Shown here piece by piece: positions 40,475 through 61,151 of a DNA stretch of 64,000 bases. Source of the stretch: Trypanosoma brucei (Eukaryota). The DNA lies in the NCBI GenBank assembly GCA_000002445.1, contig CP000068.1:64001-128000 (forward strand), given 5' to 3'. A program made the translations under genes and the position numbers. Positions within the stretch are counted from its first letter, which is position 1. Every line of letters starts with the position of its first letter. The notes beneath the pieces are model-generated. The model did no database searches, was not told where the DNA came from, and was given only the letters and a program-made list of their open reading frames with translations.

Positions 40475-42043
40475 TTAAATATCACTGTCGAAACCTGCTG
40501 CGGTCTTCGTATTTTTGCTTTTAGCATTAGCCTCCTCTATGTTTATATCATCCTTCACCTCAGCCTTCCTACGGCCCCTAATAACAAAGAACACAAGCAA
40601 CCCAAGCAACAGCAAAAGCAAAGGAATTAAAAATATTAACACTTTCGTTGTCCCAATCCAGCCACTCTTGGCCTCGCTGCCCTCATCATCATGGTCAGCG
40701 TTTACGTCGTCCTCTTCACCACTTTCTTTCGACTCCTCTTTCAATTCCTCAGCCAATTTTTCTACATCCTTCTTCAGTTTCTCTTCAGATTCCTCGGCGC
40801 CCTCCTTGTCCCACCGCGCAACTTCTGCATCTTCGGTGGCTTTGACGCGCTCCTCCTCCGCTTCCTCAAATGCCTTTCTCGAATCTTTCACCTGCTTTTC
40901 TGCAGCCTTTTCAGTTGCCTCAGCTTCCTCAACAGCCTCCAGCAACATCTTTTTCTTTTCTTCACTCACCGGCTGACCCGCCTCCTTTGCCTTCTCAGCC
41001 TTCTCAGCTTCCAAGCGCCTGGCCTCCGCCTGTTCCTCAGCAGCCACTCGTCTCGCCTCAGCCTCCTCCAAAGCCTTTCTCGCTTCCTCAGCAGCCTTCT
41101 CAGCAGCCTGGCGTTTCGCCTCCTCCTCCGCCGCCCGCGCCTCTGCTGCTTTTTTCCATTCCAGATACTGTGCAAGAGACTCCCTTCCAATCTGTTGAAA
41201 TCTCTGAGCATAGTGAGTCACCCCCAAGGAATTGCGGACTAGAGTTTCAAGTTTGAGTATCGCATACCTTGCTGCATCGTAGTCCCACCGCCAACTTTCA
41301 AGCAGCGTGCATGGTTTATCGGAGGAGGACGCACTTCTTGACGAATGGCCGCTGCTGCACTCAACAGCATCCCTTGCATCAGCCTTGGGCTTTGCTCGAT
41401 TCCATGCCTCGACTGCCCCCTCCATGTTGGAGAAGGTCACATCAGTTTTTGCAGCCGGAATAGACTTGTACTCGCAATATATAACGTATGCGCGAGCGTC
41501 ATCATGTCCAAAATTTCGATGATAGTCATGTTTATACGCACTGGGATCGCAGTTTGCGTTAGCCATATGGTCAAACGAATCACGGATTGCTTCCTTGTTT
41601 ATACAGTGCCATTTTAGCAACTCCTTGAGAACTTTGCTCGAGTTCGCTGCAGCCCTCTTCGCCTTCTCCCATGCCTCCTCAACGCTCCTTTTCGTTCGGT
41701 TCGCTACACGTTGGACACCACGCATCTGATCCAACATCTTTTGTCCCAGCGCCGCCCTCATATCATCATGCTCTGACACTTTCTGAAAAATTTCTCTCGC
41801 GACCTTCAAATATTTCCAGGATTGCCTCTCTAGAAAGTCTGCTCTATCAGCAACACCGTCAAGCAACTTTTTCATGGTACACAGTGTCAACACAGCTTCA
41901 CCATCAAGTTTCCGCCCATTTATTGTTACATACTGCTTATATGCGACAGGTAAGTTGCTTGCCTTGGACACATCGAGCGCACATATGCCGCAGAGGAGAA
42001 ATACTGTTGCAGTAGTGCGTAATGTAACAGGCATCGTTGACAT
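40475..42043 (-). CDS. ISG75: Invariant surface glycoprotein ISG75-type, copy A (522 aa). It has a signal peptide, a cysteine-containing variable ectodomain, an E/A/K/R-rich coiled-coil stalk, a transmembrane helix and a lysine-containing cytoplasmic tail (RGRRKAEVKDDINIEEANAKSKNTKTAAGFDSDI).
   Basis: I base the family call on length (~523 aa), type-I topology, the coiled-coil stalk and the Lys-containing tail, all of which match my recollection of ISG75. The gene occurs in a multicopy array. Confidence 0.8.
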   Translation of the reverse strand: MSTMPVTLRTTATVFLLCGICALDVSKASNLPVAYKQYVTINGRKLDGEAVLTLCTMKKLLDGVADRADFLERQSWKYLKVAREIFQKVSEHDDMRAALGQKMLDQMRGVQRVANRTKRSVEEAWEKAKRAAANSSKVLKELLKWHCINKEAIRDSFDHMANANCDPSAYKHDYHRNFGHDDARAYVIYCEYKSIPAAKTDVTFSNMEGAVEAWNRAKPKADARDAVECSSGHSSRSASSSDKPCTLLESWRWDYDAARYAILKLETLVRNSLGVTHYAQRFQQIGRESLAQYLEWKKAAEARAAEEEAKRQAAEKAAEEARKALEEAEARRVAAEEQAEARRLEAEKAEKAKEAGQPVSEEKKKMLLEAVEEAEATEKAAEKQVKDSRKAFEEAEEERVKATEDAEVARWDKEGAEESEEKLKKDVEKLAEELKEESKESGEEDDVNADHDDEGSEAKSGWIGTTKVLIFLIPLLLLLLGLLVFFVIRGRRKAEVKDDINIEEANAKSKNTKTAAGFDSDI

Positions 42044-42633: not shown

Positions 42634-44205
42634 TTAAATATCACTGTCAAGACCTGCTGCGGTCTTCGTATTTTTGCTTTTAGCATTAGCTTCCCCTATG
42701 TTTATATCATCCTTCACCTCAGCCTTCCTACGGCCCCTAATAACAAAGAACACAAGCAACCCAAGCAACAGCAAAAGCAAAGGAATTAAAAATATTAACA
42801 CTTTCGTTGTCCCAATCCAGCCACTTTTGGCCTCGCTGCCCTCATCATCATGGTCAGCATTTACGTCGTCCCCTTCACCACTTTCTTTCGACTCCTCTTT
42901 CAATTCCTCAGCCAATTTTTCTACATCCTTCTTCAGTTTCTCTTCAGATTCCTCGGCGTCCTTCTTTTCCTCTTTTGCAGCCTCTGCATCTTCGGTGGCT
43001 TTGACGCGCTCCTCCTCCGCTTCCTCAAATGCCTTTCTCGAATCTTTTGCCTGCTTTTCTGCGGCCTTTTCAGTTGCCTCAGCTTCCTCAACAGCCTCCA
43101 GCAACATCTTTTTCTTTTCTTCACTCACCGGCTGACCCGCCTCCTTTGCCTTCTCAGCCTTCTCAGCTTCCAAGCGCCTGGCCTCCGCCTGTTCCTCAGC
43201 GGCCACTCGTCTCGCCTCAGCCTCCTCCAAAGCCTTTCTCGCTTCCTCAGCAGCCTTCTCAGCAGCCTGGCGTTTCGCCTCCTCCTCCGCCGCCCGCGCC
43301 TCTGCTGCTTTCCTTCTCTCCTCATGCTGTGCAAGAGACTCTTTGTAACCCTCTAGCACTTTCTTAGAGTAGTGAAAAACCCTTAAAGCTAGGGTCGCAT
43401 CCTTCTCGACCTTCGATATTAAATGTGCCGTTACTCTGTAGTTCCAAAGCCAGTTCTCCAGCACTGTGCATGGTCGTCCAGCGGGAGCTGCTTGGTGAGC
43501 GGGTGCGCCTGCTCCACATATCATAACACGAGCGGAGTACGGTTTGGGTTTTACCTGGTTCCATATTTCGAGTGCCCTCTCCATGTTGGAGAACGTCGTT
43601 TGTGTAATGACGCTGTCCACTACTTTGTAGTTGCATAAAATGCTGTATTTATGGGGATCAAGCCTCGAATGTTCATAGTAGTAGTCTCGCTTGTACGCGT
43701 TGGGTAAGCAGTTCTCATTTCGACCGTAGCCAGGAAGGACGTCATGACTCGCCGTCCTGTCAACACAATGCCACGTCAGCACTTGGTCGAGAGCTGCACT
43801 TGCATTTGCCGCCGCTGCCTTAGCCCGCTCTCCTGTGCCCCCCATGTACTTGATTATGCCATTGCCCAGCGATTTCATGTACTGTATTTCCCGAAGCTTA
43901 TTTGAAGGGAATGATAACTCCATTCCCTTGTCATCCGATATTTTACGAAAATTCGCATTCGCATTGTTGACATACATATACGCCTGCTGTTCAAACATGT
44001 CAACCCTGGAGTTCACGCCGTCAAGCATCTTCTTCATTTCGCACAGTGTCGTAGCCCCTTGTCCATCAAGTTGCCGAGCACCTGCTGTTACATATTGTTT
44101 TTGTGCAACAGAGAGCTCCTCCGCCCAAGTCACATCGAGCGCACATATGCCGCAGAGGAGAAATACTGTTGCAGTAGTGCGTAATGTAACAGGCATCGTT
44201 GACAT
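42634..44205 (-). CDS. ISG75: ISG75-type, copy B (523 aa). Its N-terminal domain differs in type from copy A; its C-terminal half is near-identical.
   Basis: As for copy A. Confidence 0.8.
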   Translation of the reverse strand: MSTMPVTLRTTATVFLLCGICALDVTWAEELSVAQKQYVTAGARQLDGQGATTLCEMKKMLDGVNSRVDMFEQQAYMYVNNANANFRKISDDKGMELSFPSNKLREIQYMKSLGNGIIKYMGGTGERAKAAAANASAALDQVLTWHCVDRTASHDVLPGYGRNENCLPNAYKRDYYYEHSRLDPHKYSILCNYKVVDSVITQTTFSNMERALEIWNQVKPKPYSARVMICGAGAPAHQAAPAGRPCTVLENWLWNYRVTAHLISKVEKDATLALRVFHYSKKVLEGYKESLAQHEERRKAAEARAAEEEAKRQAAEKAAEEARKALEEAEARRVAAEEQAEARRLEAEKAEKAKEAGQPVSEEKKKMLLEAVEEAEATEKAAEKQAKDSRKAFEEAEEERVKATEDAEAAKEEKKDAEESEEKLKKDVEKLAEELKEESKESGEGDDVNADHDDEGSEAKSGWIGTTKVLIFLIPLLLLLLGLLVFFVIRGRRKAEVKDDINIGEANAKSKNTKTAAGLDSDI

Positions 44206-44801
44206 CCGTTAAAACTTATCTGTCACCCTCCTCTGATCACCACTTCCTCAGCTTGTCAGTCTCAACCTCACGTTACCTTGGCCGTAGAAATATGCAATCA
44301 ACTACAGTCAAATATCCAAGAGAAAATAAGAAAGGGAAGGGAATCGATAGAAACGACCAAAGAGTAAAAATATGCGCAATTGAGCAAAGGAAATAATATG
44401 CGTATCCAATAGCGGATTTGTTGCAGTTCACCCGAACATGGACAACCTCCACGGCAGTCTTTCATTACACCCTTCATAGTAGCGCAAGGAATGTATGAAT
44501 ACCCTTAACACATGAAATAAGCAATACGTATGAAAAAAGGCATCAGCACTGGTATCCGCAGCTACCAATGCGGCCCTACCTCAAACCGGTAGTATGTGGG
44601 AAAAGGGTAATAACCTTGAGATGAGCTGCAAGGAACTGGTCAGACCGAAACATTACAAGCAACGGTATAAAAAGCAAGAAACGAAAACATATAAAAAGCA
44701 CCCTTATATCACTTATAGCAACCGATTTCAATTCCAGTTCCAAAATCATACACACAAATGCCTATGTCTGTTCCTTCGTGTTCGGGCACAAGAGAAGGTG
44801 G

Positions 44802-46373
44802 TTAAATATCACTGTCAAGACCTGCTGCGGTCTTCGTATTTTTGCTTTTAGCACCGCCTTCCTCTATGTTTATATCATCCTTCACCTCAGCCTTCCTACG
44901 GCCCCTAATAACAAAGAACACAAGCAACCCAAGCAACAGCAAAAGCAAAGGAATTAAAAATACTAACACTTTCGTTGTCCCAATCCAGCCACTCTTGGCC
45001 TCGCTGCCCTCATCATCATGGTCAGCATTTACGTCGTCCTCTTCACCACTTTCTTTCGACTCCTCTTTCAATTCCTCCGCCAATTTTTCTACATCCTTCT
45101 TCAGTTCCTCTTCGGACCGTCCGATGGTATCCCTGTTCTGCTTTGCAGCCTCTGCATCTTCGGTGGCTTTGACGCGCTCCTCCTCCGCTTCCTCAAATGC
45201 CTTTCTCGAATCTTTTGCCTGCTTTTCTGCAGCCTTTTCAGTTGCCTCAGCTTTCTCAACAGCCTCCAGCAACATCTTTTTCTTTTCTTCACTCACCGGC
45301 TGACCCGCCTCCTTTGCCTTCTCAGCCTTCTCAGCTTCCAAGCGCCTGGCCTCCGCCTGTTCCTCAGCGGCCACTCGTCTCGCCTCAGCCTCCTCAAATG
45401 CCTTTCTCGCTTCCTCAGCAGCCTTCTCAGCAGCCTGGCGTTTCGCCTCCTCCTCCGCCGCCCGCGCCTCTGCTGCTTTCCTTCTCTCCTCATGCTGTGC
45501 AAGAGACTCCTTCGAACTTTCTAGGATTTTCTCAGAGTAGCGGTATACGAATAGAGCAACATCCAAATCCCTGTGGAGCCGCGCTATCAAGTGGGTTGCC
45601 ACTTCGTAGCTCCGCATCCAGTTCTCCAGCACTGTGCATGGTCGCCCTGGTGGAGCTGCTTGGTGAACGGGTGCGCCCGCTCCACATATCATAACACGCA
45701 TATGGTACGGCTTGGGCTTTACCTGGTTCCATATTTCGAGTGCCCTCTCCATGTTGGAGAACGTCGTTTGAGTAGTGGTGCTACTGACCACTTTGTAGTT
45801 GCATAAAATGCTGTATTTATGGGGATCAAGCCTCGAATGTTCATAGTAGTAGTCTCGCTTATACGCGTTAGGTTCACAATTTGCATTTGGAGTAGAACTG
45901 TATGAGGACTCGCGACTCTCCGTCCTGTCAACACAATGCCATTTTAGCACCTCATCGAGAGCTGCGCTTGCATTTGCCGCCGCCTTTTTAGCCCTTCCTT
46001 CGGTTGCATTCATGAGATATGCGATGTCGTCAAGCCTCGTCTTCATGTACTGCATTTGCTGATGTTGATCTCCAGATAGCGATGCTGCCATTACCTTGTC
46101 ATCCGATATTTTACGAAAATTCGCATTCGCATTGTTGACATACATATAGATTTGTTGTTCAAATGTGTCAACCCTGGAGTTCACACCGTCAAGCAACTTT
46201 TTCATGGTACACAGTGTCGCCGCAGCTTCACCATCAAGTTGCCGCCCATGTGCTGTCACATACTGTTTTTGCGCAACAGAGAGCTCCTCCGCCCAAGTCA
46301 CATCGAGCGCACATATGCCGCAGAGGAGAAATACTGTTGCAGTAGTGCATAATGTAACAGGCATCGTTGACAT
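44802..46373 (-). CDS. ISG75: ISG75-type, copy C (523 aa)
   Basis: As for copy A. Confidence 0.8.
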   Translation of the reverse strand: MSTMPVTLCTTATVFLLCGICALDVTWAEELSVAQKQYVTAHGRQLDGEAAATLCTMKKLLDGVNSRVDTFEQQIYMYVNNANANFRKISDDKVMAASLSGDQHQQMQYMKTRLDDIAYLMNATEGRAKKAAANASAALDEVLKWHCVDRTESRESSYSSTPNANCEPNAYKRDYYYEHSRLDPHKYSILCNYKVVSSTTTQTTFSNMERALEIWNQVKPKPYHMRVMICGAGAPVHQAAPPGRPCTVLENWMRSYEVATHLIARLHRDLDVALFVYRYSEKILESSKESLAQHEERRKAAEARAAEEEAKRQAAEKAAEEARKAFEEAEARRVAAEEQAEARRLEAEKAEKAKEAGQPVSEEKKKMLLEAVEKAEATEKAAEKQAKDSRKAFEEAEEERVKATEDAEAAKQNRDTIGRSEEELKKDVEKLAEELKEESKESGEEDDVNADHDDEGSEAKSGWIGTTKVLVFLIPLLLLLLGLLVFFVIRGRRKAEVKDDINIEEGGAKSKNTKTAAGLDSDI

Positions 46374-46902
46374 CCGTTAAAACTTATCTGTCACCCTCCT
46401 CTGATCACCACTTCCTCAGCTTGTCAGTCTCAACCTCACGTTACCTTGGCCGTAGAAATATGCAATCAACTACAGTCAAATATCCAAGAGAAAATAAGAA
46501 AGGGAAGGGAATCGATAGAAACGACCAAAGAGTAAAAATATGCGCGATTGAGCAAAGGAAATAATATGCGTATCCAATAGCGGATTTGTTGCAGTTCACC
46601 CGAACATGGACAACCTCCACGGCGGTCTTTCATTACACCCTTCATAGTAGCGCAAGGAATGTATGAATACCCTTAACACATGAAATAAGCAATACGTATG
46701 AAAAAAGGCATCAGCACTGGTATCCGCAGCTACCAATGCGGCCCTACCTCAAACCGGTAGTATGTGGGAAAAGGGTTGTAGTTGTAAAGTTTTCTGTAAA
46801 ATTCCTGAAATGTGACAAAAGATTGTGAAAAGACGAAACCGGCAGCAGATGGGGGAAGGGGGAAGGGAGCGGCGTTGTCAAGTGCGACGAAGATTTTTTA
46901 CG

Positions 46903-48561
46903 CTATATTGACTGCTCCTTTTCATGCTTCACGGTGGGAGTAATGCGAGGCAACTCCACAAAGGCGTCAATGGCCGGCGTATCCTTAACCGCTCTTTCCT
47001 CGCTAAAAAGGCCGTCGTTGTGGATGTTGTGATACAACTGCATTTCTCTCCGCCCACGGATGACAAAGAAGAGAAACGACCCGAGCAGCAAGAGTAAGAT
47101 AATGAAACGCACTAATAATCGCGTGATTCTATGGTTGTCACGTTGATGGGCATCAAACACTTCATCACCTTTGTCGTATTTGCTGACTCTCGCGAGGCTC
47201 TGGTACACCTCCTTTTTCAAGTCTGCACACGATCGCAAGGTGTCCTCTGCCTCCCACTGTGCAATAATCGCCGCATCATCAGCCTTCATCATCTCTGTTT
47301 CGGCTCCTTCCAGTGCCTTCTTTGATATTTCTGCCTCTTTCTCGACTTCCCTCAACCTAGACTTTGCATCCTTCTCTGCCTGTATTTTTTTCCTGCTCTC
47401 CCCAGCCATCAGAAGGGCGGCCGCCTCAAGCTTCTCCTTGTTAGCCTTCGCCTCCTCCAGTGCCTTGCTCAATTCTTCGATTTTCGTCGTCACTTCCCGC
47501 AGTTTGCTCTCAGCTTCCCTCACGGCATCGGCATCCCGGCTCCTGGCTTCCGCATCCCTTTTAAGTAATAGCCACCTCTTTTCAACATCTTCGAAGACAT
47601 TTCTCGCCTCATTGACAACTCTACCGGCTGCCTGATGTTTCGACCTTTCCTCTACGGCACGTTCGTTTGCGGCCTTATCCTCCTCATGGACGCCCTCGGC
47701 CGACGTCCCTTCGCCCAGCGAGAGCATTTCTGCATATTTTCGGATTCTGACAGCAACGTGGGTTAAATCGTAGAGCCTCCTCATAGAATACCTTGATGCG
47801 TTGTAATCCTCTAGCCAAGATTCACGCAGCATGCATGGCACCAGCGTTTCAGTGGCTTCGTCCCTCCACTGACCGTTCCAACATTCAGATAGACGCGTTA
47901 GGTTGGGTTTGGGCTTCACAAAATTCCACTTGTCAAGTGCCCTCCCCATCGTTTCAAACGATGCAACAGTATCTCCGCTGCGGATAACCTTGTAGTCACA
48001 CAGAATACTGTTGTTCCTGCGATCATTCACGTGATAATAGTGGAACCGCTCCCTTGAAAACGCGTCAGGATCACAGTTAGCGCCAGTGCTATAATTATAA
48101 GGAGACCCTCTCATCTTTTCAACATCGATGCAGTGCCATTTAAGTATATCCGAAAGAAGTCTGCTAGCATCCAAAGCTGCCTCTTTAGTTCGCTTATAAG
48201 CCGCCTCGATGTGCTTTCTAACGGCCTCAACAAGCTCTCTGGTCATAAGTATCTCCTCCTGTTTTTTCTTCGTGAGAGATGTTCTTATGTTATCGCTAAT
48301 TGTTACATTCGAGAGTACGGTCTTCGCTTTACTCAGCTGCGACAACGCCTCACTCTCAAGGAAAAACGCCCTTTCGGAAACGAGGTCAACAATTGCTTTG
48401 ATAACACATATCGACCGTGCACCCTCACCATCAACTTTTTTTCCTCCGCTGGTGACATACGATTTCCACCATACTAGCTCCTCCGCCCAAGTCACATCGA
48501 GCGCACATATGCCGCAGAGGAGAAATACTGTTGCAGTAATGCGTAATGTAACAGGCATCAT
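46903..48561 (-). CDS. Divergent ISG75-like paralogue, copy D (552 aa). It shares the signal peptide and 5' flank with the array, but has a distinct ectodomain, a distinct coiled-coil, and a different cytoplasmic tail (RGRREMQLYHNIHNDGLFSEERAVKDTPAIDAFVELPRITPTVKHEKEQSI).
   Basis: The first ~30 codons and the upstream repeat are shared with copies A-C. The body is less than 40% similar to the other copies by eye, but the topology is the same. Confidence 0.7.
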   Translation of the reverse strand: MMPVTLRITATVFLLCGICALDVTWAEELVWWKSYVTSGGKKVDGEGARSICVIKAIVDLVSERAFFLESEALSQLSKAKTVLSNVTISDNIRTSLTKKKQEEILMTRELVEAVRKHIEAAYKRTKEAALDASRLLSDILKWHCIDVEKMRGSPYNYSTGANCDPDAFSRERFHYYHVNDRRNNSILCDYKVIRSGDTVASFETMGRALDKWNFVKPKPNLTRLSECWNGQWRDEATETLVPCMLRESWLEDYNASRYSMRRLYDLTHVAVRIRKYAEMLSLGEGTSAEGVHEEDKAANERAVEERSKHQAAGRVVNEARNVFEDVEKRWLLLKRDAEARSRDADAVREAESKLREVTTKIEELSKALEEAKANKEKLEAAALLMAGESRKKIQAEKDAKSRLREVEKEAEISKKALEGAETEMMKADDAAIIAQWEAEDTLRSCADLKKEVYQSLARVSKYDKGDEVFDAHQRDNHRITRLLVRFIILLLLLGSFLFFVIRGRREMQLYHNIHNDGLFSEERAVKDTPAIDAFVELPRITPTVKHEKEQSI

Positions 48562-49215
48562 TGGAAACCATCAAAACTTATCTGTCACCCTCCTCTGATC
48601 ACCACTTCCTCAGCTTGTCAGTCTCAACCCCACGTTACCTTGGCCGTAGAAATATGCAATCAACTACAGTCAAATATCCAAGAGAAAATAAGAAAGGGAA
48701 GGGAATCGATAGAAACGACCAAAGAGTAAAAATATGCGCGATTGAGCAAAGGAAATAATATGCGTATCCAATAGCGGATTTGTTGCAGTTCACCCGAACA
48801 TGGACAACCTCCACGGCAGTCTTTCATTACACCCCTCGTAGTAGCTGCAAACCTCGGCATGCTATGAGCCATCCGGCCACCGCAGCTCCCCTTGGTGATG
48901 GTGTTGAGTGCGTTGAGCTAAAGTGCCTTTACAAATAAAGGCCAAAGTGACCATTTCAGAAGATAGCACAAGGCCTGTCAAATCATAAAAAAGAGCAGGA
49001 GCACGGGAAATGGCTGCTGAGAAAAAAGACAAAGAGGTGTATAGATAAAAGGGGGAAGCAGCTAGATGGTGGAACGCTTTACGACTGTGGCAGCCGCAAG
49101 GGTGCAGCAAAGTCTATGATGTTTGAAAAACGGTTGCGGCACATACCACGAAGCATCAACAACAGTGCTGGGTGGCGAAACACAAAGTGACAGAGTCGCT
49201 CGCGGTTTACTGTAT

Positions 49216-49238
49216 CACACACACACACACACACACAC
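49216..49238. repeat. (CA)n microsatellite
   Basis: Read directly from the sequence. Confidence 0.95.
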
Positions 49239-52200
49239 TGACAATGCGCGGTAGGCACGGAAGTACGTGAGTCTTGTACAACCGGTCACTCGGCCAAAAA
49301 TGCTTCCACCTCAGTGAGACACTTTGCTGTTTCCGTGTACCGATCACGGAAACGAGTTTTGCCTAGCGGACGGGGCCGCGGCAATTTTACGTTACCCACC
49401 TCTGTGACCTAACTAGTTTTGCATAACCACCACACTGAGCGGTTGAATTTTTTTTCGAAAAGGTTTCTTGATTTCTCAGTACAGCTTGCTATGGCATACC
49501 CTCCCCACAAGATAATTTTTTTTCTTCGAATTATATTCTCTGAAAATTATGGCAAACGTCGTGCTACGAAAACATACGTGCATATATGGCAAAATAAGGA
49601 TGAAAGCGAATCAATGGTAATCGACGTGGTCGCCATTTACGCACCTAAACGAAAAACAGTAGGAATATCTTTGCGCAACCTTTTTTAGAAGGTAAATAAT
49701 GGGAAACAAAAACAAAACAGCGGTGACTCAACGCCACAATCATAAAAGCTAATGATAATAATATATCGGGGTCAACAGCCCGAAGCTGCAGGCCGCAGTG
49801 AATCCCCCAATGCGGAAGGCATCCAAACATAAGCAGTAAAGTGTTGTTTACCTCCCAGTAATTTTAATCAAACCGAGCCGTCGACTAAGTATCTTACCAC
49901 GCCAAAGGCAAGACGTTTGCTGTACGGAATTCAACGAAAATAATGGGCTCCTTCACTGCTGTCTCACAACCTCCCGTATACCTCAACTTCAGGAACGTTG
50001 AAGTGCAAAACGAATGTTTAGCAAATAACCGAGGAACTAGTAAGTATCGCGTCTCTGTTTGAATCAGCTAAAAGTTTTTTTATGTGCTGCTGACGGGGAA
50101 AAAGGGAAGGAAATCAAAATCGATCCATTGCTTCATGCGCACTTGAATGTGTATAAAGATTCAGACAGGTTTACAACAATGTGTCAACGATATGCTGAAC
50201 AAGCTATTCCCTTTTTACTAACGTATATTGCTGCTGGGGGATGTTCGCTATCCAACAAGGAAGCATCCAAATTCACCGCCAGAAAGTAGTGTCTATGCTT
50301 TTGAGCGAGCAAAAACATTCAACAGTAGTGAACAAATACATGCGACCCTGCGGAACACATCACATGTCCCGCCTCCCGACGCACGAAACTAAAGGCAAAA
50401 CCATCACATGATGGTTCTTATGACCGTCTGCTACGCAACCACTCTGTATAGCAAAAGCCATGTGGGAGAAACAACCGCACATCACCGAACGTCATCGCCG
50501 AAACCGCACCCCATGCCCACGTGTCGATACATGAATTTGTGTTCTCTTCGTTAGTTTGTGGTAAGAAATCAAATGGTAATTTTTTTTCCTCCAACAAGTA
50601 GAAATTTATGGGACCTGCATAGGATTCGCAGCGCACGCTTCCTTAGCATTGTGTCTTCCCTTCCTCCTATAAGCGCTTAGAGACCCGCTAAACCAACTCG
50701 CTGAGCGACATATACAAATGCTTTGATGTGTATAGTCCAGACTAGGAAGATACGGGCCTTATGCAAACCTGCTACGGGTCAAGAAATACCGAGCAGTCAA
50801 GACGATTATGCCCCCTGGTGATGAAAGGCGGCTAGCACTAACATGTGGATCGACAGCCCAGGAGGGGGAAAGGTGTTTAACATACAGAACTCACCCCCTT
50901 TTAGGTCAGAAACGCAAAGGTCAATTGATTCAATTAGTTCCTTCCCGTAGGAAGAAACTATGTAAAGTCATTGTAATGCTGTGACGGTCCAGGGGAAAAA
51001 ATAATCTTACGAGAAAGGAGGAGGATCTACTCCTTCCGCAGTGCCTTGTGTACGTTACTTTATTGTTTCCTTTACTTCATATTAGCTTCTCTAGTGAATA
51101 CGTTGCGGTGACCATGCCAAATAAATAGTCACGCAGCTGTAAACCCACTACCTCAATCAAAAATTGGGCAAGTTAAAACGGAAACAGAAGGAAAGCAAAT
51201 AAAGCAGAGAGTAATGCAAAATTCACGACTACCCACCTTTAAAATGTTAGCAACCTAATCTGGGCTTCATCACAGCACCAACCAGCGCCGGACACAGCCT
51301 CGTTGCCATTTTGCATAAACCTCTGCAGCCAAAAAAAAAAAATCTACCGCAAATAAAACATGGAGCAGGCAACAGTGCACGACCAATGCAGCCGCACAGA
51401 AGGTCAATCTCTCTCGAAAGATAATTAGTAAAAATACTTTTTCCCACAACAATTTCACGTAGCACAAACACACGTGCGTGCGTGCGTCCAAAGAGCAAAG
51501 GAGAAATAGAAACGAACAGGTATACTTGCCGGAATCCCAAAGTAACATGGGTCCATCAATCACCCTGACGGTGCGACCGCGGCCAGACCGTTCAACGTAC
51601 CAATAGAAAGCTCCATCCAGCTTTAGGGTAACGTACAAGTTCCACTCACACTAACAAAAGGATTGCCAACCACAACAATCGCACGGTACCATAAACTCTC
51701 CCACTATTATTGTTTGTTTTTGGCTTCTTTTTTTTTTTTTACGAAGCTCACAGAGCTCACCGTGCCGACAGGAGAACAAGAGGGAACGTCTGCCTCCCAT
51801 TCCGTGCACACAACAGATAGACACGTCCCTGTTAAGGTTACCACCAGAGCTAATCCTTCACATACGTAAACCCTCCACGCCACGAAGTTAGAGTCTGCCG
51901 TATGCTCTGAGTGAGATCCCCGGATGAGTTAACCTCCATGGTAAATGGTCCCTCCCCAAGTCCCTCGAGAGACCTCACCGCGGTGTCGAGAGCCAGTATC
52001 TCTGGGAAAAGGAAGAAAATACCTACCACTCGTGCCGAATGGTTAGATGCAAACTCCTTTGGACGGGGGGGAAGAAAGAAAAAACTTACCGGCGGTCATC
52101 AACGAAAGTTTTAAAAAAAAAAAATGAAATCGTGTCCCAAGCAACGGCCATCGTCGCGGCTTCCTTAGGCGGCAGAAGCTCAGAGATTTGGAGGGAACCC

Positions 52201-52391
52201 CGTCGTCCCCACCGCCCTTCACGCACGATAAGCAATGTTACGTCCCGCACCATCCTGTAAGAAAATTACGGAAGAAGAATCCAACTCCCTTTTAAGGCGT
52301 AGAACTCCGAAACGATCAGCCTTCAATGAGAGTAGAAGCCTCCACCACGCACGCCTGCACTGAAGTCGACATCTCGGCAGCGAAGAGCCGC

Positions 52392-52447
<56 letters not shown>
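52392..52447. repeat. Compound (CA)14(TA)14 microsatellite
   Basis: Read directly from the sequence. Confidence 0.95.
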
Positions 52448-55400
52448 CTACTTATTCATACCGCTGCCCCCCCTGTAGTCAGGCAGGCCACGCAGTGAAT
52501 CCCGCCGCGTGATAATAAATTTTTAAGAAGTGGAAACGGGAATGTGCCAGCACCGCCTTTTTAAGGGCCACATGGTCGGGGCCGCGACTCTGTTAGCTCA
52601 TACGCTCCGACAAGCGGATTTACGCCGTCGTGCTAATACCGTTCCGGGAAGGATTGCAGTGTGACTGCGGGCTGGGGGAGGTCATGCTGGGTTGAGCGGT
52701 GGGCTACGTGTCTAGACTGTCCGTTAAAGCTGAGGAAGCTGGGGGTCGTTTGCTTCCTACCGATAAGAATGTACTGTGGCGGAACGGAGTGGCTTGGGGG
52801 AAAGTGAGGGAAGGGGGAGGTTGCCCTTTTTTTTTTTTCTTGATTTGTCAGTACGCCAGGGGGGAGGGGTGATAAAACTCTACCGGCTTCGGTTGAACTC
52901 TACAGGAGAGGGAAGTCTGAAACAAATTCTGCCCCAAGGAGCCCGCGGCACCGACGCGCACGCGCTTGTTAATTTGTAAAAAGCCAAAAGAAGAATGAAG
53001 CCACGGGGGGGGAGGGACGCCGGTGACGCAGGTAGCGACATGCGCACCTCTATGAGTAGGTGTGCAAATGCGCGAATGCGTTACCTATCTGCTCCTCTCA
53101 TCGAAACACTTGTGTCATGACTCGGGCATTTGCTTACCTTGGGGTCTTTTTGGAAGTGTTTGAAAGTACACCTTTTCTCCGCTCCTAAGTTAAGCCCCTT
53201 CCCTCCTTCAACGGGATCCACTCCAAGTTTCAACGACGGCCCGGCATGCAGGTCTGCAGGTGATAGACAGGTAAGGGGAATTAGCCCTCACAACTGTGGC
53301 AATCTGGGCGGGGTTTAACGTCCACGAAGAGAGCTGAACTAATACATCTGCGGATATATGTATCAGGGGGCGCTTTCTCCTCCTTTACTGGTGCCACGAC
53401 TCCTCTAACCATGAAAAAAAAAGGAGAAAGGATGCCAGATTTCTGCCTTGCTTGTTGAACTAGTTGACCCTCCATTTGGCTGGATTCGGGAACTGGTGGT
53501 TGAAAATATATGCGTATCTGGATATCGAAAGAGCACAGTGGAGGATGAAAAGGGGGGCTTACCCAATGTTATTTTTTTAAACTTTAACACTATTCGGATC
53601 GAAAGGCCCTTGGGGGGAGAGGGGAAATGAAATGTAGGGGAACATGGAGGGAAAGTACATGCCTGTGGGAGTTGTTTCCCCTCTGCCTGATTCTTCTCGT
53701 TGAGTGAAAAAAGATGTAGTGGTGGTCGCTCCCACTAACAGCGGGAGAGCAGCGAAGAAAAAACTTATTTTGCTCCATTTCAATACTGCGGATTAGTTGT
53801 GAGAAATATATATATTTATATATGCATTACCTATTGACAGTGCGCTGGTGAGGTGCAGGGGTGACGACATGCTCGCTGAGAGTTGAAAGTAGCGCTCCTA
53901 CAGAGAACTTCTTTCCGTAAAAGTTAAAGTGTGGGGTGGGAAAAGGGACACAAGGAAATCAGCAGCAGTACTGGGGATAAACTTGCGGGTTTAAACCTTG
54001 GCGCTGTTTCAAGCGTCTAGAGACGCTGAACGATTTGCTCGTAGTTATGCGTATTATTTTTCTCTCATATGTGAAGGGTGTATGTTGTATGCAGTTCATT
54101 CCTCAGCTACACATGATGTTGGTTTGTGGCCGCGCCTGGACACCCCCACGCTCGTATACAAGGAAAGGGAAAGGAACCAATATGCCAGCACTTAGTTTGC
54201 TGCCAATATGTTTGAGTATTTCTGCCTCTGTATCGACACGAATAAAGGGCAGTGAAATGAACGCCATACACCACTTTCAGTAACGAAATTCCTCTAAATA
54301 GGGGGAAATACGTTGGGAGAGGTAGTTGTGAGGCTATAAATTAAATATTTCTGTGTCCTCTAGTTTTTATGCATCCCTCATATACAAAGCTACGTATTGT
54401 CACCAGCCTCCATGTAGCCCATGGTATTTGCCCCCGTTTCACGTTTTTTAAAGCGTTTCTCAATGCTTCTTCTAATTTTACAAATGTGTGTCTTTGCGTG
54501 TGAGCTGTTTCGGTGAGTGGTGCATACATGGGAAGGAAAATATATTAACGTCGGGGAAATGCAATGGGTTTTTTTTTTCTTGCTATACTGTTTGCTCATT
54601 TCTCCCTCCACATAATTTGTAAATGGGCACAGTCAGCTGGAAGCTGACTCTGACTTTTTTTTGCCATTGATTCCTCGAATTACGTATGGAGGTGACACCC
54701 CATTTTGTCAAAGTATTGTACCCAGAGGCTTTTTTTGTAAACATGCACATTGCCGTGAGCCTCATATCCCGCATCACAAAGGAACAAGGGGTGGACTGTT
54801 CACTTTGCCCTCACCGTGTTCTGTGTAGTTGAACGGACACACGATACTGAAACATTGGGGATAATTATAATGATAGTGATAATAACAACGAAACGTGCTC
54901 AGAAGCCTTTTTGTATGGGAGGGCTTCTGGAATTCTGTCAAGCGCATTGACTCATATCCTCTTGGTTGGATTGCTGCCTATTCTTGTACGTTAATTTCGT
55001 GTAATGCTAACCATTCTACTGGCTGCTGTCTTGATGTTGTTGGAGCTCCAAACCTCTGCAACATCATGACCTCCTCACGTCACCTGTCTGGATCGTGGGG
55101 CAGGCTGTTACTTGCAAAAAGAATATCAACAATTCGTCACGCAACTAACGGCTGGACAAAATAAGCCAAGAAAAAACGGTAAGGGAAGGTGCGAGTTCGG
55201 GAGTGACGTATGCTGATTGTCGTGAGACAATAACGTTTCTCAGCAATTCCGGAAAGTATGAATGTTGAGGGAATTCCTTAACACACAGATGGGGATGGAA
55301 GTTGGTTTTTATTATTATTATTATCATTACTATTTTGAAGGGGGAGAAAGACGTCCACAGTGATTTTGAATACAGTGGGATACATCTCCCATGCCTACTA

Positions 55401-57257: not shown

Positions 57258-57330
57258 ATTTTTACTCTTTGGTCGTTTCTATCGATTCCCTTCCCTTTCT
57301 TATTTTCTCTTGGATATTTGACTGTAGTTG
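57258..57330 (+). promoter_or_regulatory. Polypyrimidine tract (cgattcccttccctttcttattttctctt) plus downstream AGs: a putative SL trans-splice acceptor for ISG75 copy E. The same element is present in every flank repeat.
   Basis: The pyrimidine run is followed by AG dinucleotides 95-100 bp upstream of the ATG. Such tracts direct SL trans-splicing in trypanosomes. Confidence 0.5.
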
Positions 57331-57423
57331 ATTGCATATTTCTACGGCCAAGGTAACGTGGGGTTGAGACTGACAAGCTGAGGAAGTGGTGATCAGAGGA
57401 GGGTGACAGATAAGTTTTAACGG

Positions 57424-58992
57424 ATGTCAACGATGCCTGTTACATTACGCACTACTGCAACAGTATTTCTCCTCTGCGGCATATGTGCGCTCGATGTGAC
57501 TCTGGCCGCAGACCTTCCACTTACAAGTAGGCAGTTCGTAACAAACGGACGTATGCTTGACGGGCGGGGTGCTTTGACACTGTGCGAAATGAAGAAGACG
57601 CTTGACGGTGTGAACTCCAGGGTTGACACATTTGAACAACAAATCCTTACGTTCGTCAACAATGCGAATGCGAATTTTCGTAAAATATCGGATGACAAGG
57701 TAATGGCAGCATCGCTCTCCGCGAGCAGGCTACAGGAAATGCAGTACATGAAATCGCTGGGCAATAGCATAATCAAGTACATGGGGGGCACAGGAGAGCG
57801 GGCTAAGGCAGCGGCGGCAAATGCAAGCGCAGCTCTCGACCAAGTGCTGACGTGGCATTGTGTTGACAGGACGGCGAGTCACGAGTCCTCATACAGTTCT
57901 ACTCCAAATGCAAATTGTGAACCTAACGCGTATAAGCGAGACTACTACTATGAACATTCGAGGCTTGATCCCCATAAATACAGCATTTTATGCAACTACA
58001 AAGTGGTCAGTAGTACCACTACTCAAACGACGTTCTCCAACATGGAGAGGGCACTCGAAATATGGAACCAGGTAAAACCCAAACCGTACTCCGCTCGTGT
58101 TATGATATGTGGAGCAGGCGCACCCGCTCACCAAGCAGCTCCCGCTGGACGACCATGCACAGTGCTGGAGAACTGGGTGCGAGACTACAGAGTAACGGCA
58201 CATTTGATAGCAAAGCTCGAGAAGGATGCGACCCTAGCTCTAAGGGTTATGCGCTACTCTGAGAAAGTGCTAGAGGGTGACAAAGAGTCTCTTGCACAGC
58301 ATGAGGAGAGAAGGAAAGCAGCAGAGGCGCGGGCGGCGGAGGAGGAGGCGAAACGCCAGGCTGCTGAGAAGGCTGCTGAGGAAGCGAGAAAGGCTTTGGA
58401 GGAGGCTGAGGCGAGACGAGTGGCCGCTGAGGAACAGGCGGAGGCCAGGCGCTTGGAAGCTGAGAAGGCTGAGAAGGCAAAGGAGGCGGGTCAGCCGGTG
58501 AGTGAAGAAAAGAAAAAGATGTTGCTGGAGGCTGTTGAGGAAGCTGAGGCAACTGAAAAGGCTGCAGAAAAGCAGGCAAAAGATTCGAGAAAGGCATTTG
58601 AGGAAGCGGAGGAGGAGCGCGTCAAAGCCACCGAAGATGCAGAGGCTGCAAAAGAGGAAAAGGAGGACGCCGGACGGTCCGAAGAGGAACTGAAGAAGAG
58701 TCTCGAAAAATTGGCGGAGGAATTGAAAGAGGAGTCGAAAGAAAGTGGTGAAGAGGACGACGTAAATGCTGACCATGATGATGAGGGCAGCGAGGCCAAA
58801 AGTGGCTGGATTGGGACAACGAAAGTGTTAATATTTTTAATTCCTTTGCTTTTGCTGTTGCTTGGGTTGCTTGTGTTCTTTGTTATTAGGGGCCGTAGGA
58901 AGGCTGAGGTGAAGGATGATATAAACATAGAGGAAGGCGGTGCTAAAAGCAAAAATACGAAGACAGCAGCAGGTCTTGACAGTGATATTTAA
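57424..58992 (+). CDS. ISG75: ISG75-type, copy E (522 aa). Its N-terminal domain is chimeric, with patches matching copies C and B.
   Basis: As for copy A. Confidence 0.8.
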   Translation: MSTMPVTLRTTATVFLLCGICALDVTLAADLPLTSRQFVTNGRMLDGRGALTLCEMKKTLDGVNSRVDTFEQQILTFVNNANANFRKISDDKVMAASLSASRLQEMQYMKSLGNSIIKYMGGTGERAKAAAANASAALDQVLTWHCVDRTASHESSYSSTPNANCEPNAYKRDYYYEHSRLDPHKYSILCNYKVVSSTTTQTTFSNMERALEIWNQVKPKPYSARVMICGAGAPAHQAAPAGRPCTVLENWVRDYRVTAHLIAKLEKDATLALRVMRYSEKVLEGDKESLAQHEERRKAAEARAAEEEAKRQAAEKAAEEARKALEEAEARRVAAEEQAEARRLEAEKAEKAKEAGQPVSEEKKKMLLEAVEEAEATEKAAEKQAKDSRKAFEEAEEERVKATEDAEAAKEEKEDAGRSEEELKKSLEKLAEELKEESKESGEEDDVNADHDDEGSEAKSGWIGTTKVLIFLIPLLLLLLGLLVFFVIRGRRKAEVKDDINIEEGGAKSKNTKTAAGLDSDI

Positions 58993-59582: not shown

Positions 59583-61151
59583 ATGTCAACGATGCCTGTT
59601 ACATTACGCACTACTGCAACAGTATTTCTCCTCTGCGGCATATGTGCGCTCGATGTGTCCAAGGCAAGCAACTTACCTGTCGCATATAAGCAGTATGTAA
59701 CAATAAATGGGCGGAAACTTGACGGGCGGGGTGCTTTGACACTGTGTACCATGAAAAAGTTGCTTGACGGTGTTGCTGATAGAGCAGACTTTCTAGAGAG
59801 GCAATCCTGGAAATATTTGAAGACAGTGCAGGAAATTTTTCAGAAAGTGTCAGAGCATGATGATATGAAGGCGGCCCTTGGCGAAAAGAAGCTGCAGGAA
59901 ATGCATAATGTAATGGCCATATCAGCAACCACTGGAACGTACGTTGGTGAAGCGTGGGGAAAGGCGAAGAGGGCTGCAGCGAACTCGAGCAAAGTTCTCA
60001 AGGAGTTGCTAAAATGGCACTGTATAAACAAGGAAGCAATCCGTGATTCGTTTGACCATATGGCTAACGCAAACTGCGATCCCAGTGCGTATAAACATGA
60101 CTATCATCGAAATTTTGGACATGATGACGCTCGCGCATACGTTATATATTGCGAGTACAAGTCTATTCCGGCTGCAAAAACTGATGTGACCTTCTCCAAC
60201 ATGGAGGGGGCAGTCGAGGCATGGAATCGAGCAAAGCCCAAGGCTGATGCAAGGGATGCTGTTGAGTGCAGCAGCGGCCATTCGTCAAGAAGTGCGTCCT
60301 CCTCCGATAAACCATGCACGCTGCTTGAAAGTTGGCGGTGGGACTACGACTTGGCAGCACATTGCATTGAAAAACTTGAAAGATACACCAGAAATGCATT
60401 ACAAACAGTTCATTACGCTCAAAAATTCCTACATAAAGGAAAGGAGTCTCTTGCACAGTATCTGGAATGGAAAAAAGCAGCAGAGGCGCGGGCGGCGGAG
60501 GAGGAGGCGAAACGCCAGGCTGCTGAGAAGGCTGCTGAGGAAGCGAGAAAGGCTTTGGAGGAGGCTGAGGCGAGACGAGTGGCTGCTGAGGAACAGGCGG
60601 AGGCCAGGCGCTTGGAAGCTGAGAAGGCTGAGAAGGCAAAGGAGGCGGGTCAGCCGGTGAGTGAAGAAAAGAAAAAGATGTTGCTGGAGGCTGTTGAGGA
60701 AGCTGAGGCAACTGAAAAGGCTGCAGAAAAGCAGGTGAAAGATTCGAGAAAGGCATTTGAGGAAGCGGAGGAGGAGCGCGTCAAAGCCACCGAAGATGCA
60801 GAAGTTGCGCGGTGGGACAAGGAGGGCGCCGAGGAATCTGAAGAGGAACTGAAGAAGGATGTAGAAAAATTGGCTGAGGAATTGAAAGAGGAGTCGAAAG
60901 AAAGTGGTGAAGAGGACGACGTAAACGCTGACCATGATGATGAGGGCAGCGAGGCCAAGAGTGGCTGGATTGGGACAACGAAAGTGTTAATATTTTTAAT
61001 TCCTTTGCTTTTGCTGTTGCTTGGGTTGCTTGTGTTCTTTGTTATTAGGGGCCGTAGGAAGGCTGAGGTGAAGGATGATATAAACATAGAGGAGGCTAAT
61101 GCTAAAAGCAAAAATACGAAGACCGCAGCAGGTTTCGACAGTGATATTTAA
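59583..61151 (+). CDS. ISG75: ISG75-type, copy F (522 aa). It is the closest relative of copy A, in inverted orientation.
   Basis: As for copy A. Confidence 0.8.
   Translation: MSTMPVTLRTTATVFLLCGICALDVSKASNLPVAYKQYVTINGRKLDGRGALTLCTMKKLLDGVADRADFLERQSWKYLKTVQEIFQKVSEHDDMKAALGEKKLQEMHNVMAISATTGTYVGEAWGKAKRAAANSSKVLKELLKWHCINKEAIRDSFDHMANANCDPSAYKHDYHRNFGHDDARAYVIYCEYKSIPAAKTDVTFSNMEGAVEAWNRAKPKADARDAVECSSGHSSRSASSSDKPCTLLESWRWDYDLAAHCIEKLERYTRNALQTVHYAQKFLHKGKESLAQYLEWKKAAEARAAEEEAKRQAAEKAAEEARKALEEAEARRVAAEEQAEARRLEAEKAEKAKEAGQPVSEEKKKMLLEAVEEAEATEKAAEKQVKDSRKAFEEAEEERVKATEDAEVARWDKEGAEESEEELKKDVEKLAEELKEESKESGEEDDVNADHDDEGSEAKSGWIGTTKVLIFLIPLLLLLLGLLVFFVIRGRRKAEVKDDINIEEANAKSKNTKTAAGFDSDI

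What the first reader, a model, noticed from the sequence alone, without database searches (positions are those of the whole stretch)
46903..48561. Divergent ISG75-like paralogue with an altered cytoplasmic tail
Copy D shares only the 5' flank and the first ~30 codons (signal peptide) with the array. That fits a gene-conversion boundary near the ATG, or a recruited promoter or splice site. The rest is highly diverged: a different ectodomain, a distinct coiled coil, a transmembrane segment (RLLVRFIILLLLLGSFLFFVI) and a 47-aa tail that lacks the clustered lysines of canonical ISG75 (which has RGRRKAEVKDDINIEE(A/G)NAKSKNTKTAAG). In ISG65/75 the tail lysines are ubiquitylation sites that drive endocytosis and turnover, so this paralogue may have different surface residency.
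Basis: partly seen in the sequence, partly recalled or inferred. Interest (0 to 1): 0.6.

Follow-up and report, generated by a model that had tools for sequence, protein, structure and literature searches.

The report
Known divergent ISG75 paralogue, Tb927.5.380
This is the already annotated sixth gene of the Trypanosoma brucei ISG75 surface-glycoprotein locus (Tb927.5.380): an old, intact but apparently weakly expressed paralogue that shares only its splice-site, 5'UTR and signal-peptide module with its five neighbours and has a diverged cytoplasmic tail.

Summary
The ORF at 46903-48561 (-) encodes a 552-aa type I membrane protein. Only a 375-nt block (289 nt of 5' flank plus 86 nt of CDS) is about 97% identical to the five ISG75 copies in the window. 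Beyond codon 29, synonymous sites are saturated.

The gene is not new. [quoted passage not shown] Its CDS is nucleotide-identical in T. equiperdum.

The ectodomain is homologous rather than "different". It passes the Pfam ISG65-75 threshold, keeps all six ectodomain cysteines, and matches the ISG75 structure 8RD2 at E=1e-53. It amounts to a third N-domain class, hardly more diverged than the two canonical classes are from each other. What sets D apart is that its stalk, transmembrane segment and tail escaped the homogenisation that keeps the other five 90-100% identical.

The tail has lost four of the five canonical lysine positions but still carries three lysines. It also has a 17-aa extension.

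D was absent from every bloodstream-form dataset I could check. It also has a private out-of-frame upstream ATG and its own proximal 3' flank.

The gene-conversion reading is supported. The claim of altered surface residency is untested and weakened. Low interest.

The parts
46903..48561 (-). CDS of copy D = Tb927.5.380, 552 aa plus stop. An ISG75-family type I membrane glycoprotein.
   Evidence: ORF list and translation. Exact match to XP_844712.1/AAZ11153.1. Chromosome coordinates 167998-169656 (-) match at an offset of 121095.
48476..48850 (-). Shared 5' module: 289 nt of 5' flank plus codons 1-29 (signal peptide). About 97% identical to the array copies, closest to the B/C type.
   Evidence: blastn; MAFFT alignment; dS 0.05.
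48680..48705 (-). Polypyrimidine tract of the predicted trans-splicing signal, identical in all six copies.
48664..48665 (-). First AG after the polypyrimidine tract. This is the predicted splice acceptor and gives a predicted 5'UTR of 102 nt. Inference only, not mapped.
48431..48571 (-). D-specific out-of-frame upstream ATG at -10, opening a 46-codon uORF that overlaps the main start. It lies in a cluster of 6 substitutions within 13 nt that also removes the canonical first ATG.
   Evidence: Conserved in T. equiperdum.
47707..48474 (-). Ectodomain N-domain (aa 30-285), a third ISG75 N-domain class. It is 30-33% identical to both canonical classes, has 6 conserved Cys and 5 N-glycosylation sequons.
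47122..47706 (-). Helical, charged stalk or coiled-coil region (aa 286-480). It is 37-38% identical to the canonical stalk, carries a 24-aa insertion, and lacks the acidic juxtamembrane stretch.
47059..47118 (-). Transmembrane segment (aa 482-501).
46906..47058 (-). Cytoplasmic tail (aa 502-552): RGRR, then a diverged 30-aa region, then a 17-aa C-terminal extension. It has 3 Lys and one YxxPhi-like match (YHNI, 510-513).
46777..46902 (-). D-specific proximal 3' flank (126 nt, C-rich), unrelated to the canonical ISG75 3' flank. From 46776 downstream it merges into the common intergenic unit that precedes copy C.
44802..46373 (-). Comparator: copy C = Tb927.5.370.
42634..44205 (-). Comparator: copy B = Tb927.5.360.
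40475..42043 (-). Comparator: copy A = Tb927.5.350.
57424..58992 (+). Comparator: copy E = Tb927.5.390 (522 aa).
59583..61151 (+). Comparator: copy F = Tb927.5.400 (522 aa).

Best explanation
Copy D is Tb927.5.380, the sixth and most divergent member of the T. brucei ISG75 locus. It encodes a complete type I membrane glycoprotein: an ISG75 signal peptide, a homologous helical-bundle ectodomain of a third sequence class, a helical stalk, one transmembrane helix and a 51-aa tail.

It is an old paralogue. Its ectodomain falls outside the clade formed by the five canonical copies, and synonymous sites are saturated. It was kept open by purifying selection for most of its history.

Concerted evolution (segmental gene conversion) has overwritten only its 5' module, meaning the splice-acceptor region, 5'UTR and signal peptide. 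The same process has homogenised the C-terminal half and 3' flank of the other five copies but not of D. D therefore keeps a private stalk, transmembrane segment, tail and proximal 3'UTR.

Inferred steps:
- The protein most likely enters the secretory and endocytic pathway like other ISGs.
- It is made at much lower levels in bloodstream forms. The reasons would be its different 3'UTR and a private out-of-frame upstream ATG that should divert scanning ribosomes.
- Its tail keeps three lysines, so it can in principle still be ubiquitylated. It has lost four of the five canonical sites, so its turnover kinetics may differ.
For: Identity:
- Exact protein match to XP_844712.1 on the 1,608,198-bp TREU927 chromosome 5.
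- Coordinates match Tb927.5.380.
- The lengths of the other five copies match Tb927.5.350.360.370.390 and .400.

Family membership:
- Pfam ISG65-75 at 52.9 bits.
- phmmer E=1e-53 to the ISG75 structure 8rd2 over residues 30-429.
- Foldseek top hits are 8RD2, then ISG65.
- 6 of 6 ectodomain cysteines are aligned.

Mosaic structure.

Age and constraint:
- dS is above 2 or undefined, and dN is 0.62-0.73.
- The coding frame has 1 stop, against 25 and 48 in the other two frames. Shuffled sequence gives a mean longest open stretch of 69 codons.
- The canonical five form a clade at 98% bootstrap that excludes D.
- The best ectodomain match outside D itself is T. congolense P0010 (E=5e-47), ahead of canonical T. 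brucei ISG75 (1.7e-38).

Tail:
- The T. congolense full-length protein P0015 has a canonical-type tail. The canonical tail is therefore ancestral and D's is derived.
- D's tail aligns to the canonical tail over 34 aa and then continues for a further 17 aa.

Low expression:
- The canonical five are quantified and D is not in Zoltner 2015.
- D is absent from the Gadelha 2015 bloodstream-form surface proteome supplementary files held as text.
- D is absent from the Jensen 2009 differential-expression lists.
- D is absent from the Naguleswaran 2018 RNA-seq supplementary files held as text, one of which was cut when stored.
- Makarov 2023 report a 'more variant copy' with peptides in 1 of 5 replicates.

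Upstream ATG.
Against: - No direct expression measurement for Tb927.5.380 was available. Absence from tables may reflect filtering of multi-copy genes or the truncation of stored files.
- I could not verify that Makarov's variant copy Tb427_050007700 (515 aa, 58.5 kDa) is the orthologue of the 552-aa D.
- The deep phylogeny is unresolved. D with T. congolense P0010 has only 45% bootstrap, and long-branch effects are possible.
- The splice site and the effect of the upstream ATG are predictions.
- The AlphaFold model is of low confidence (mean pLDDT 51.7).
- Nothing here tests ubiquitylation or trafficking.
Confidence: 0.75

Rival explanations
1. One reading: the lysine-poor, longer tail reduces ubiquitin-dependent endocytosis and turnover. 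D would then stay longer on the surface than canonical ISG75.
For: - Four of the five canonical lysine positions are substituted, including the membrane-proximal RGRRK and the KSKNTK cluster.
- The ISG75 transmembrane segment plus tail is sufficient for TbUsp7-dependent stability control (Zoltner 2015).
Against: - D keeps three lysines, as many as some ISG65 isoforms.
- The protein is barely detected, if at all, in bloodstream forms. That is the opposite of what a stabilised, well-translated surface protein would show.
- No experiment exists on this tail.
Confidence: 0.2
2. D is a stage- or niche-specific ISG75 variant. Its private 3'UTR would direct expression in a life-cycle stage or tissue form not covered by culture bloodstream and procyclic datasets. 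Its distinct ectodomain would bind a different host ligand.
For: - The proximal 3' flank is unrelated to the canonical one.
- The ORF has been maintained for a long time.
- The ectodomain class is distinct and has 5 N-glycosylation sequons against 1-2.
- D is absent from bloodstream-form and procyclic-form lists.
Against: - No dataset showing such expression was found.
- The Savage 2016 tsetse-stage supplements held here contain neither D nor Tb927.5.370, so they say nothing either way.
- The upstream ATG would dampen translation in any stage.
Confidence: 0.2
3. D is a relic on its way to becoming a pseudogene. It is still open but no longer expressed or needed, and the conserved 5' patch is only a by-product of conversion from its neighbour.
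For: - Detection is low or absent.
- The canonical first ATG is lost and an out-of-frame upstream ATG has been gained.
- No D-type protein was found for T. b. gambiense DAL972 in the protein searches.
- ISG75-null cells are viable (Makarov 2023 abstract).
Against: - The 552-codon frame is intact with all structural cysteines.
- The CDS is identical in T. equiperdum, although that divergence is too small to be a test.
- Saturated dS with dN of about 0.65-0.7 implies past constraint.
Confidence: 0.2

Closest known systems
Canonical T. brucei ISG75 (Tb927.5.350, .360, .370, .390, .400; structure PDB 8RD2)
   Same: - Same locus and the same signal peptide and 5' module.
- Same domain order: signal peptide, cysteine-containing helical N-domain, charged helical stalk, transmembrane segment, short tail.
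- Pfam ISG65-75.
- RGRR after the transmembrane segment and a C-terminal isoleucine.
   Different: - 30-33% identity in the N-domain, 37-38% in the stalk with a 24-aa insertion, and 24% in the tail.
- 3 tail lysines rather than 5, and a tail 17 aa longer.
- 5 N-glycosylation sequons rather than 1-2.
- Its own proximal 3' flank and a private upstream ATG.
- It lies outside the canonical clade (98% bootstrap).
- It is not detected alongside the canonical copies in the proteomic tables checked.
The two ISG75 groups of Trypanozoon (Tran et al. 2006, Parasitology 133:613; cited in PMC6518633)
   Same: The window shows the two groups: A/F against B/C/E, 37-42% identical in the N-domain. D behaves like a third N-domain class of comparable depth.
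   Different: The two described groups share a homogenised C-terminal half, and D does not. I did not read the 2006 paper, so I cannot say whether it covers D. D's 3' end is unlike that of the other copies.
T. congolense ISG75-like proteins (CCD16619.1 = P0010; CCD13861.1 = P0015)
   Same: - P0010 is the best ectodomain match to D (37% identity, E=5e-47).
- T. congolense paralogues also share signal peptides despite divergent ectodomains: P0010 and P0013 match at 20 of 21 residues.
   Different: - Orthology is not resolved (45% bootstrap).
- P0010 is truncated by telomere-type repeats, so its tail is unknown.
- P0015 carries a canonical-type tail, not a D-type tail.
ISG65 / ISG64 (the other branch of Pfam ISG65-75)
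   Same: A type I helical-bundle surface receptor with a short lysine-bearing tail (3-4 Lys).
   Different: Only a distant structural match (Foldseek E about 2e-4, 17% identity). D is clearly on the ISG75 side.

Membership tests
ISG65-75 superfamily (Pfam PF11727) | Match to the family profile above the curated threshold | tested here: met
   52.9 bits against a cut-off of 25.1, residues 97-268.
ISG65-75 superfamily (Pfam PF11727) | Type I topology: N-terminal signal peptide, a single C-terminal transmembrane segment and a short cytoplasmic tail | tested here: met
   Hydrophobic N-terminus 93-97% identical to the signal peptides of ISG75 copies B and C. Kyte-Doolittle peak at 482-501. 51-aa tail.
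ISG75 family | Homology to the solved ISG75 ectodomain, including the conserved cysteines | tested here: met
   phmmer E=1e-53 to 8rd2_A over residues 30-429. 6 of 6 ectodomain Cys columns are invariant. Foldseek top hit is 8RD2, but from a low-confidence model with mean pLDDT 51.7.
ISG75 family | Location in the chromosome 5 ISG75 array and annotation as ISG75 | tested here: met
   Adjacent to Tb927.5.370. [quoted passage not shown]
Canonical ISG75 (the homogenised five-copy set) | Ectodomain groups within the canonical T. brucei clade | tested here: not met
   NJ bootstrap of 98% for a clade of the five that excludes D.
Canonical ISG75 (the homogenised five-copy set) | Shared stalk, transmembrane segment and tail (90-100% identity) and the shared 3' flank | tested here: not met
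   38%, about 60% and 24% identity respectively. No DNA match. 126 nt of private 3' flank.
Canonical ISG75 (the homogenised five-copy set) | Cluster of 4-5 cytoplasmic lysines | tested here: not met
   3 Lys, of which only K526 aligns with a canonical lysine.
ISG75 function | Ubiquitylation of tail lysines and TbUsp7/TbVdu1-dependent turnover | not testable with these tools
   Needs reporter or pulse-chase experiments. Only the presence of lysines could be scored.
ISG75 function | Abundant bloodstream-form surface and endosomal protein | tested here: inconclusive
   Literature tables only. D is absent where the canonical copies are listed. A 'variant copy' is barely detected in Lister 427, but its orthology to D was not verified.
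ISG75 function | Suramin binding by the ectodomain | not testable with these tools
   Binding was shown for a canonical ISG75 (Makarov 2023). It is unknown for D.

The most novel reading that the evidence does not exclude
D is a functional ISG75 lineage that predates the T. brucei / T. congolense split. Its own 3'UTR would restrict expression to a life-cycle stage or tissue niche that has not been sampled. It would have a different host ligand, and a tail that is sorted differently from the canonical ubiquitin-switch tail, for example less ubiquitin-dependent or using the YHNI motif.
Probability: 0.12. Interest if true: 0.5.

Novelty: already known. Interest (0 to 1): 0.2.

Why it matters
ISG75 is a suramin entry route, and work on the locus treats it as six genes. 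It is useful to know that one of the six has a private ectodomain class, stalk, tail and 3'UTR, and that it shares the CRISPR guide site used to knock out the locus.

This has practical consequences for interpreting ISG75 knock-outs, antibody and peptide quantification, and ID mapping between strains. For example, Makarov 2023 Table S1 pairs Tb427 and Tb927 IDs in serial order.

The locus is also a clean example of segmental concerted evolution with sharp boundaries. None of this changes current understanding unless D turns out to be expressed somewhere with distinct trafficking or ligand specificity.

Tried and rejected
- **Frameshift origin of the tail.** I translated all three frames of D's 3' end. 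No canonical-like tail appears in the other frames. I rejected this in favour of divergence plus a 17-aa extension.
- **D tail borrowed from another ISG-like gene in the window.** The 407-aa PF11727 protein at 12126-13349 has an unrelated tail. Rejected.
- **Recovering a D-type tail from T. congolense.**
  - The contig carrying the best match, P0010, was fetched, but the gene is cut off by (TAACCC)n repeats.
  - A homologue search with P0010 found only itself.
- **Orthologues in other Trypanozoon species.**
  - The word-indexed search and the exhaustive HMMER search returned only the TREU927 / T. equiperdum sequence for the D type.
  - The Lister 427, T. evansi and T. b. gambiense genomes could not be queried at the DNA level with these tools.
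- **Non-coding RNAs.** An Rfam scan of 38-64 kb found nothing.
- **Structure prediction.** AlphaFold2 with the six-sequence alignment gave a low-confidence model (pLDDT 51.7), usable only for the three bundle helices.
- **Expression in supplementary tables.**
  - Tinti 2019 has no supplementary files held.
  - Savage 2016 has no ISG75 rows.
  - Leung 2011 is not held in the library.
- **YHNI as a sorting signal.** This is a single YxxPhi match in a 51-aa tail. It is compatible with chance and I did not pursue it.
Full report
**What the window is.** The exact protein look-up places the ORF at 46903-48561 (-) on the 1,608,198-bp chromosome 5 of Trypanosoma brucei brucei TREU927. [quoted passage not shown]

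A supplementary table of PMC9241505 gives Tb927.5.380 at Tb927_05_v5.1:167998-169656 (-). With an offset of 121,095 this is exactly the finding's interval. Tb927.5.350.360 and .370 fall on the three ORFs downstream. The lengths of the remaining copies match the table in Zoltner 2015: 522/523 aa for .350.360.370.390 and .400.

The six copies are:

| Copy | Window coordinates | Strand | Gene |
|---|---|---|---|
| A | 40475-42043 | - | Tb927.5.350 |
| B | 42634-44205 | - | Tb927.5.360 |
| C | 44802-46373 | - | Tb927.5.370 |
| D | 46903-48561 | - | Tb927.5.380 |
| E | 57424-58992 | + | Tb927.5.390 |
| F | 59583-61151 | + | Tb927.5.400 |

D and E face away from each other across an 8.9-kb stretch with no ORF above 130 aa and no Rfam match.

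**Checking the observation.** I ran blastn of D with 1.2-kb flanks against every other copy.
- It finds one shared block at D's 5' end, window 48476-48850: 289 nt of flank plus 86 nt of CDS, at 96.5-96.9% identity.
- It finds nothing significant across the remaining 1.57 kb of CDS.
- Similarity resumes 127 nt after D's stop codon, where the common intergenic unit preceding copy C begins.

Codon-aligned nucleotide identity is 96.6% for codons 1-29 and 48-49% afterwards. dS jumps from 0.05 to above 2, or is undefined.

At the protein level, identity of D to the other copies is:

| Region | Identity |
|---|---|
| Signal peptide | 83-97% |
| N-domain | 30-33% |
| Stalk | 37-38% |
| Transmembrane segment | about 60% |
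| Tail | 24% |

**Corrections to the description.**
- The ectodomain is not a different domain.
  - It passes the Pfam ISG65-75 threshold at 52.9 bits against 25.1.
  - It matches the solved ISG75 structure 8RD2 at E=1e-53 over residues 30-429.
  - It keeps all six ectodomain cysteine columns.
  - A low-confidence AlphaFold model (mean pLDDT 51.7, but 70-89 on the helices at 45-88, 98-143 and 248-282) retrieves 8RD2 and then ISG65 as its top Foldseek hits.
- The five "canonical" copies themselves fall into two N-domain classes, A/F and B/C/E. These are only 37-42% identical, with dS about 2.2. They correspond to the two ISG75 groups named in the title of Tran et al. 2006, which I did not read and which is cited in PMC6518633. 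D is a third class of only slightly greater depth.
- What is unique to D is the C-terminal half. Stalk, transmembrane segment, tail and 3' flank are 90-100% identical among the five copies and unrelated at the DNA level in D.
- The tail is 51 aa after the transmembrane segment, or 47 aa after RGRR. It has three lysines (K526, K545, K548) against five in the 34-aa canonical tail. Only K526 aligns with a canonical lysine.
- The tail aligns with the canonical one over its full 34 residues (AIDAF against GLDSDI) and then runs on for 17 more residues. No alternative frame encodes a canonical tail.
- A full-length T. congolense relative, P0015, has a canonical-type tail (RGRRAAENKDDIDIG...LDSEI). 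The canonical tail is therefore the ancestral state and D's is derived.

**Age and constraint.** An exhaustive HMMER search of 1.84 billion representatives with D's ectodomain returned six proteins:
- D itself;
- a canonical ISG75 (33% identity, E=1.7e-38);
- four T. congolense proteins, the best of which (P0010) scores higher than the canonical T. brucei copies (37% identity, E=5e-47).

In a bootstrapped NJ tree of the N-domain, the five canonical copies form a clade at 98% that excludes D. D pairs with P0010 in only 45% of replicates, so the deep order is unresolved.

D's reading frame has no internal stop. The other two frames have 25 and 48 stops, and shuffled sequence gives a mean longest open stretch of 69 codons. 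Together with dN of 0.62-0.73 and saturated dS, this means the ORF was under purifying selection for most of its history.

The T. equiperdum contig is 99.9% identical over 2,101 nt, with no difference inside the CDS. That divergence is too small to test recent constraint.

**How the 5' patch is best explained.**
- The shared block contains the polypyrimidine tract (48680-48705), the first downstream AG (48664-48665; predicted 5'UTR of 102 nt), the 5'UTR and the signal peptide.
- Copy E, the first gene on the opposite strand, shares almost the same extent of upstream sequence, about 270 nt.
- Near-identity of non-coding and synonymous positions, ending abruptly at codon 29, points to recombination (gene conversion) and not to selection alone.
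- D's block is of the B/C type (TWAEEL), which is the type of its immediate neighbour.
- T. congolense shows the same habit. P0010 and P0013 share 20 of 21 signal-peptide residues although their ectodomains are 30% identical.

**Features that bear on expression.**
- Within the otherwise almost identical block there is a cluster of six substitutions in 13 nt at the start codon. The canonical first ATG is lost. A new in-frame ATG sits directly before the conserved one. An out-of-frame ATG appears at -10. It is the only upstream ATG in the predicted 5'UTR and opens a 46-codon uORF that overlaps the main start. It is conserved in T. equiperdum.
- D's first 126 nt of 3' flank are private. In trypanosomes mRNA abundance and stage regulation depend mainly on 3'UTRs, and upstream ATGs lower translation (established knowledge). 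The effect on D is an inference.

Literature tables agree with low expression in cultured bloodstream forms, none of them decisively:

| Source | Result for D |
|---|---|
| Zoltner 2015, Table 1 (selected protein groups) | Groups for the five canonical genes are listed. D is not. |
| Gadelha 2015, bloodstream surface proteome | Lists Tb427.05.350, .360, .370 and .400. No .380 in the supplementary files held as text. |
| Jensen 2009 | The five canonical mRNAs are up in bloodstream forms. D is in none of the lists. |
| Naguleswaran 2018, RNA-seq supplementary files (one cut when stored) | The canonical genes are listed. D is not. |
| Makarov 2023 | A "more variant copy" (Tb427_050007700, 515 aa) has peptides in 1 of 5 replicates. 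|

I could not confirm that Makarov's variant copy is D's orthologue. Their table pairs Tb427 and Tb927 IDs in serial order, not by orthology. Their guide RNA site (nt 34-53) is present in all six copies, including D.

The ISG75 transmembrane segment plus tail is sufficient for TbUsp7-dependent stability control (Zoltner 2015), so a changed tail could matter. However, D keeps three lysines, as many as two ISG65 isoforms in the same table. A protein that is hardly detected is also not obviously one with prolonged residency. The tail has one YxxPhi-type match (YHNI), which is compatible with chance. The idea remains untested.

**Verdict.**
- The sequence observation is confirmed.
- The gene-conversion interpretation is supported, with the boundary at codon 29.
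- The "different ectodomain" wording is wrong.
- The tail hypothesis is open but weakened.
- The gene is already annotated and is counted in the literature as part of the six-gene ISG75 locus. It is not a new element.
- The points I did not find stated in the papers I read are the precise mosaic anatomy, the derived and extended tail, the private upstream ATG and 3' flank, and the placement outside the canonical clade. These are refinements of a known gene family.

Noticed in passing
window 40475-46373 and 57424-61151: The five canonical ISG75 copies are themselves mosaics. There are two N-domain classes, A/F and B/C/E, at 37-42% amino-acid identity and dS about 2.2. They are joined to a homogenised 5' module and a homogenised C-terminal half with 3' flank (93-100% nucleotide identity).
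   Followed up: partly
window 48562-57423: An 8.9-kb gene-free divergent strand-switch region lies between D and E. It has no ORF above 130 aa and no Rfam match. A published Bdf3 chromatin peak (chromosome 5 171976-172376) maps to window 50881-51281. D and E would then be the first genes of two divergent transcription units.
   Followed up: partly
window 48431-48571 (-): A D-specific out-of-frame upstream ATG at -10 opens a 46-codon uORF that overlaps the main start. It was created by a cluster of 6 substitutions in 13 nt inside an otherwise about 99% identical block, and it is conserved in T. equiperdum.
   Followed up: partly
L002 (T. congolense CAEQ01002365.1), about 1180-1560: The T. congolense gene that best matches D's ectodomain (P0010) is cut off after 304 codons by a long (TAACCC)n telomere-type repeat. 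It is either a truncated subtelomeric copy or an assembly join.
   Followed up: no
P0010 and P0013 (T. congolense): These two T. congolense ISG75-like proteins have only 30% ectodomain identity but share 20 of 21 signal-peptide residues. This is the same 5'-module sharing seen in the T. brucei array.
   Followed up: no
PMC9896412 Table S1: The table pairs Tb427_0500077-82 with Tb927.5.350-400 in serial order. The label 'Tb927.5.380' therefore sits on a canonical copy, and the variant copy is labelled 'Tb927.05.350'. This is a trap for cross-strain comparisons.
   Followed up: partly
window 41988-42010, 44150-44172, 46318-46340, 48512-48534, 57457-57479, 59616-59638: The published ISG75 CRISPR guide plus PAM (GCAACAGTATTTCTCCTCTG CGG) matches all six copies perfectly, including D.
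   Followed up: yes
window 12126-13349 (-): A further ISG-like gene: 407 aa, Pfam ISG65-75 at 101 bits, with its own transmembrane segment and a tail unrelated to D's.
   Followed up: partly
window 15857-19567 (-) and 21265-24888 (-): Two receptor-type adenylate cyclase (GRESAG4) genes. The second matches the coordinates of Tb927.5.330.
   Followed up: no
window 33653-35116 (+): A 487-aa ORF with a hydrophobic N-terminus, many N-glycosylation sequons and no Pfam match at E<=0.001.
   Followed up: no
window 1101-1898 (-) and 8589-9551 (-): An N-terminal fragment of a retrotransposon hot spot (RHS) protein, and a 2OG-Fe(II) oxygenase gene.
   Followed up: no
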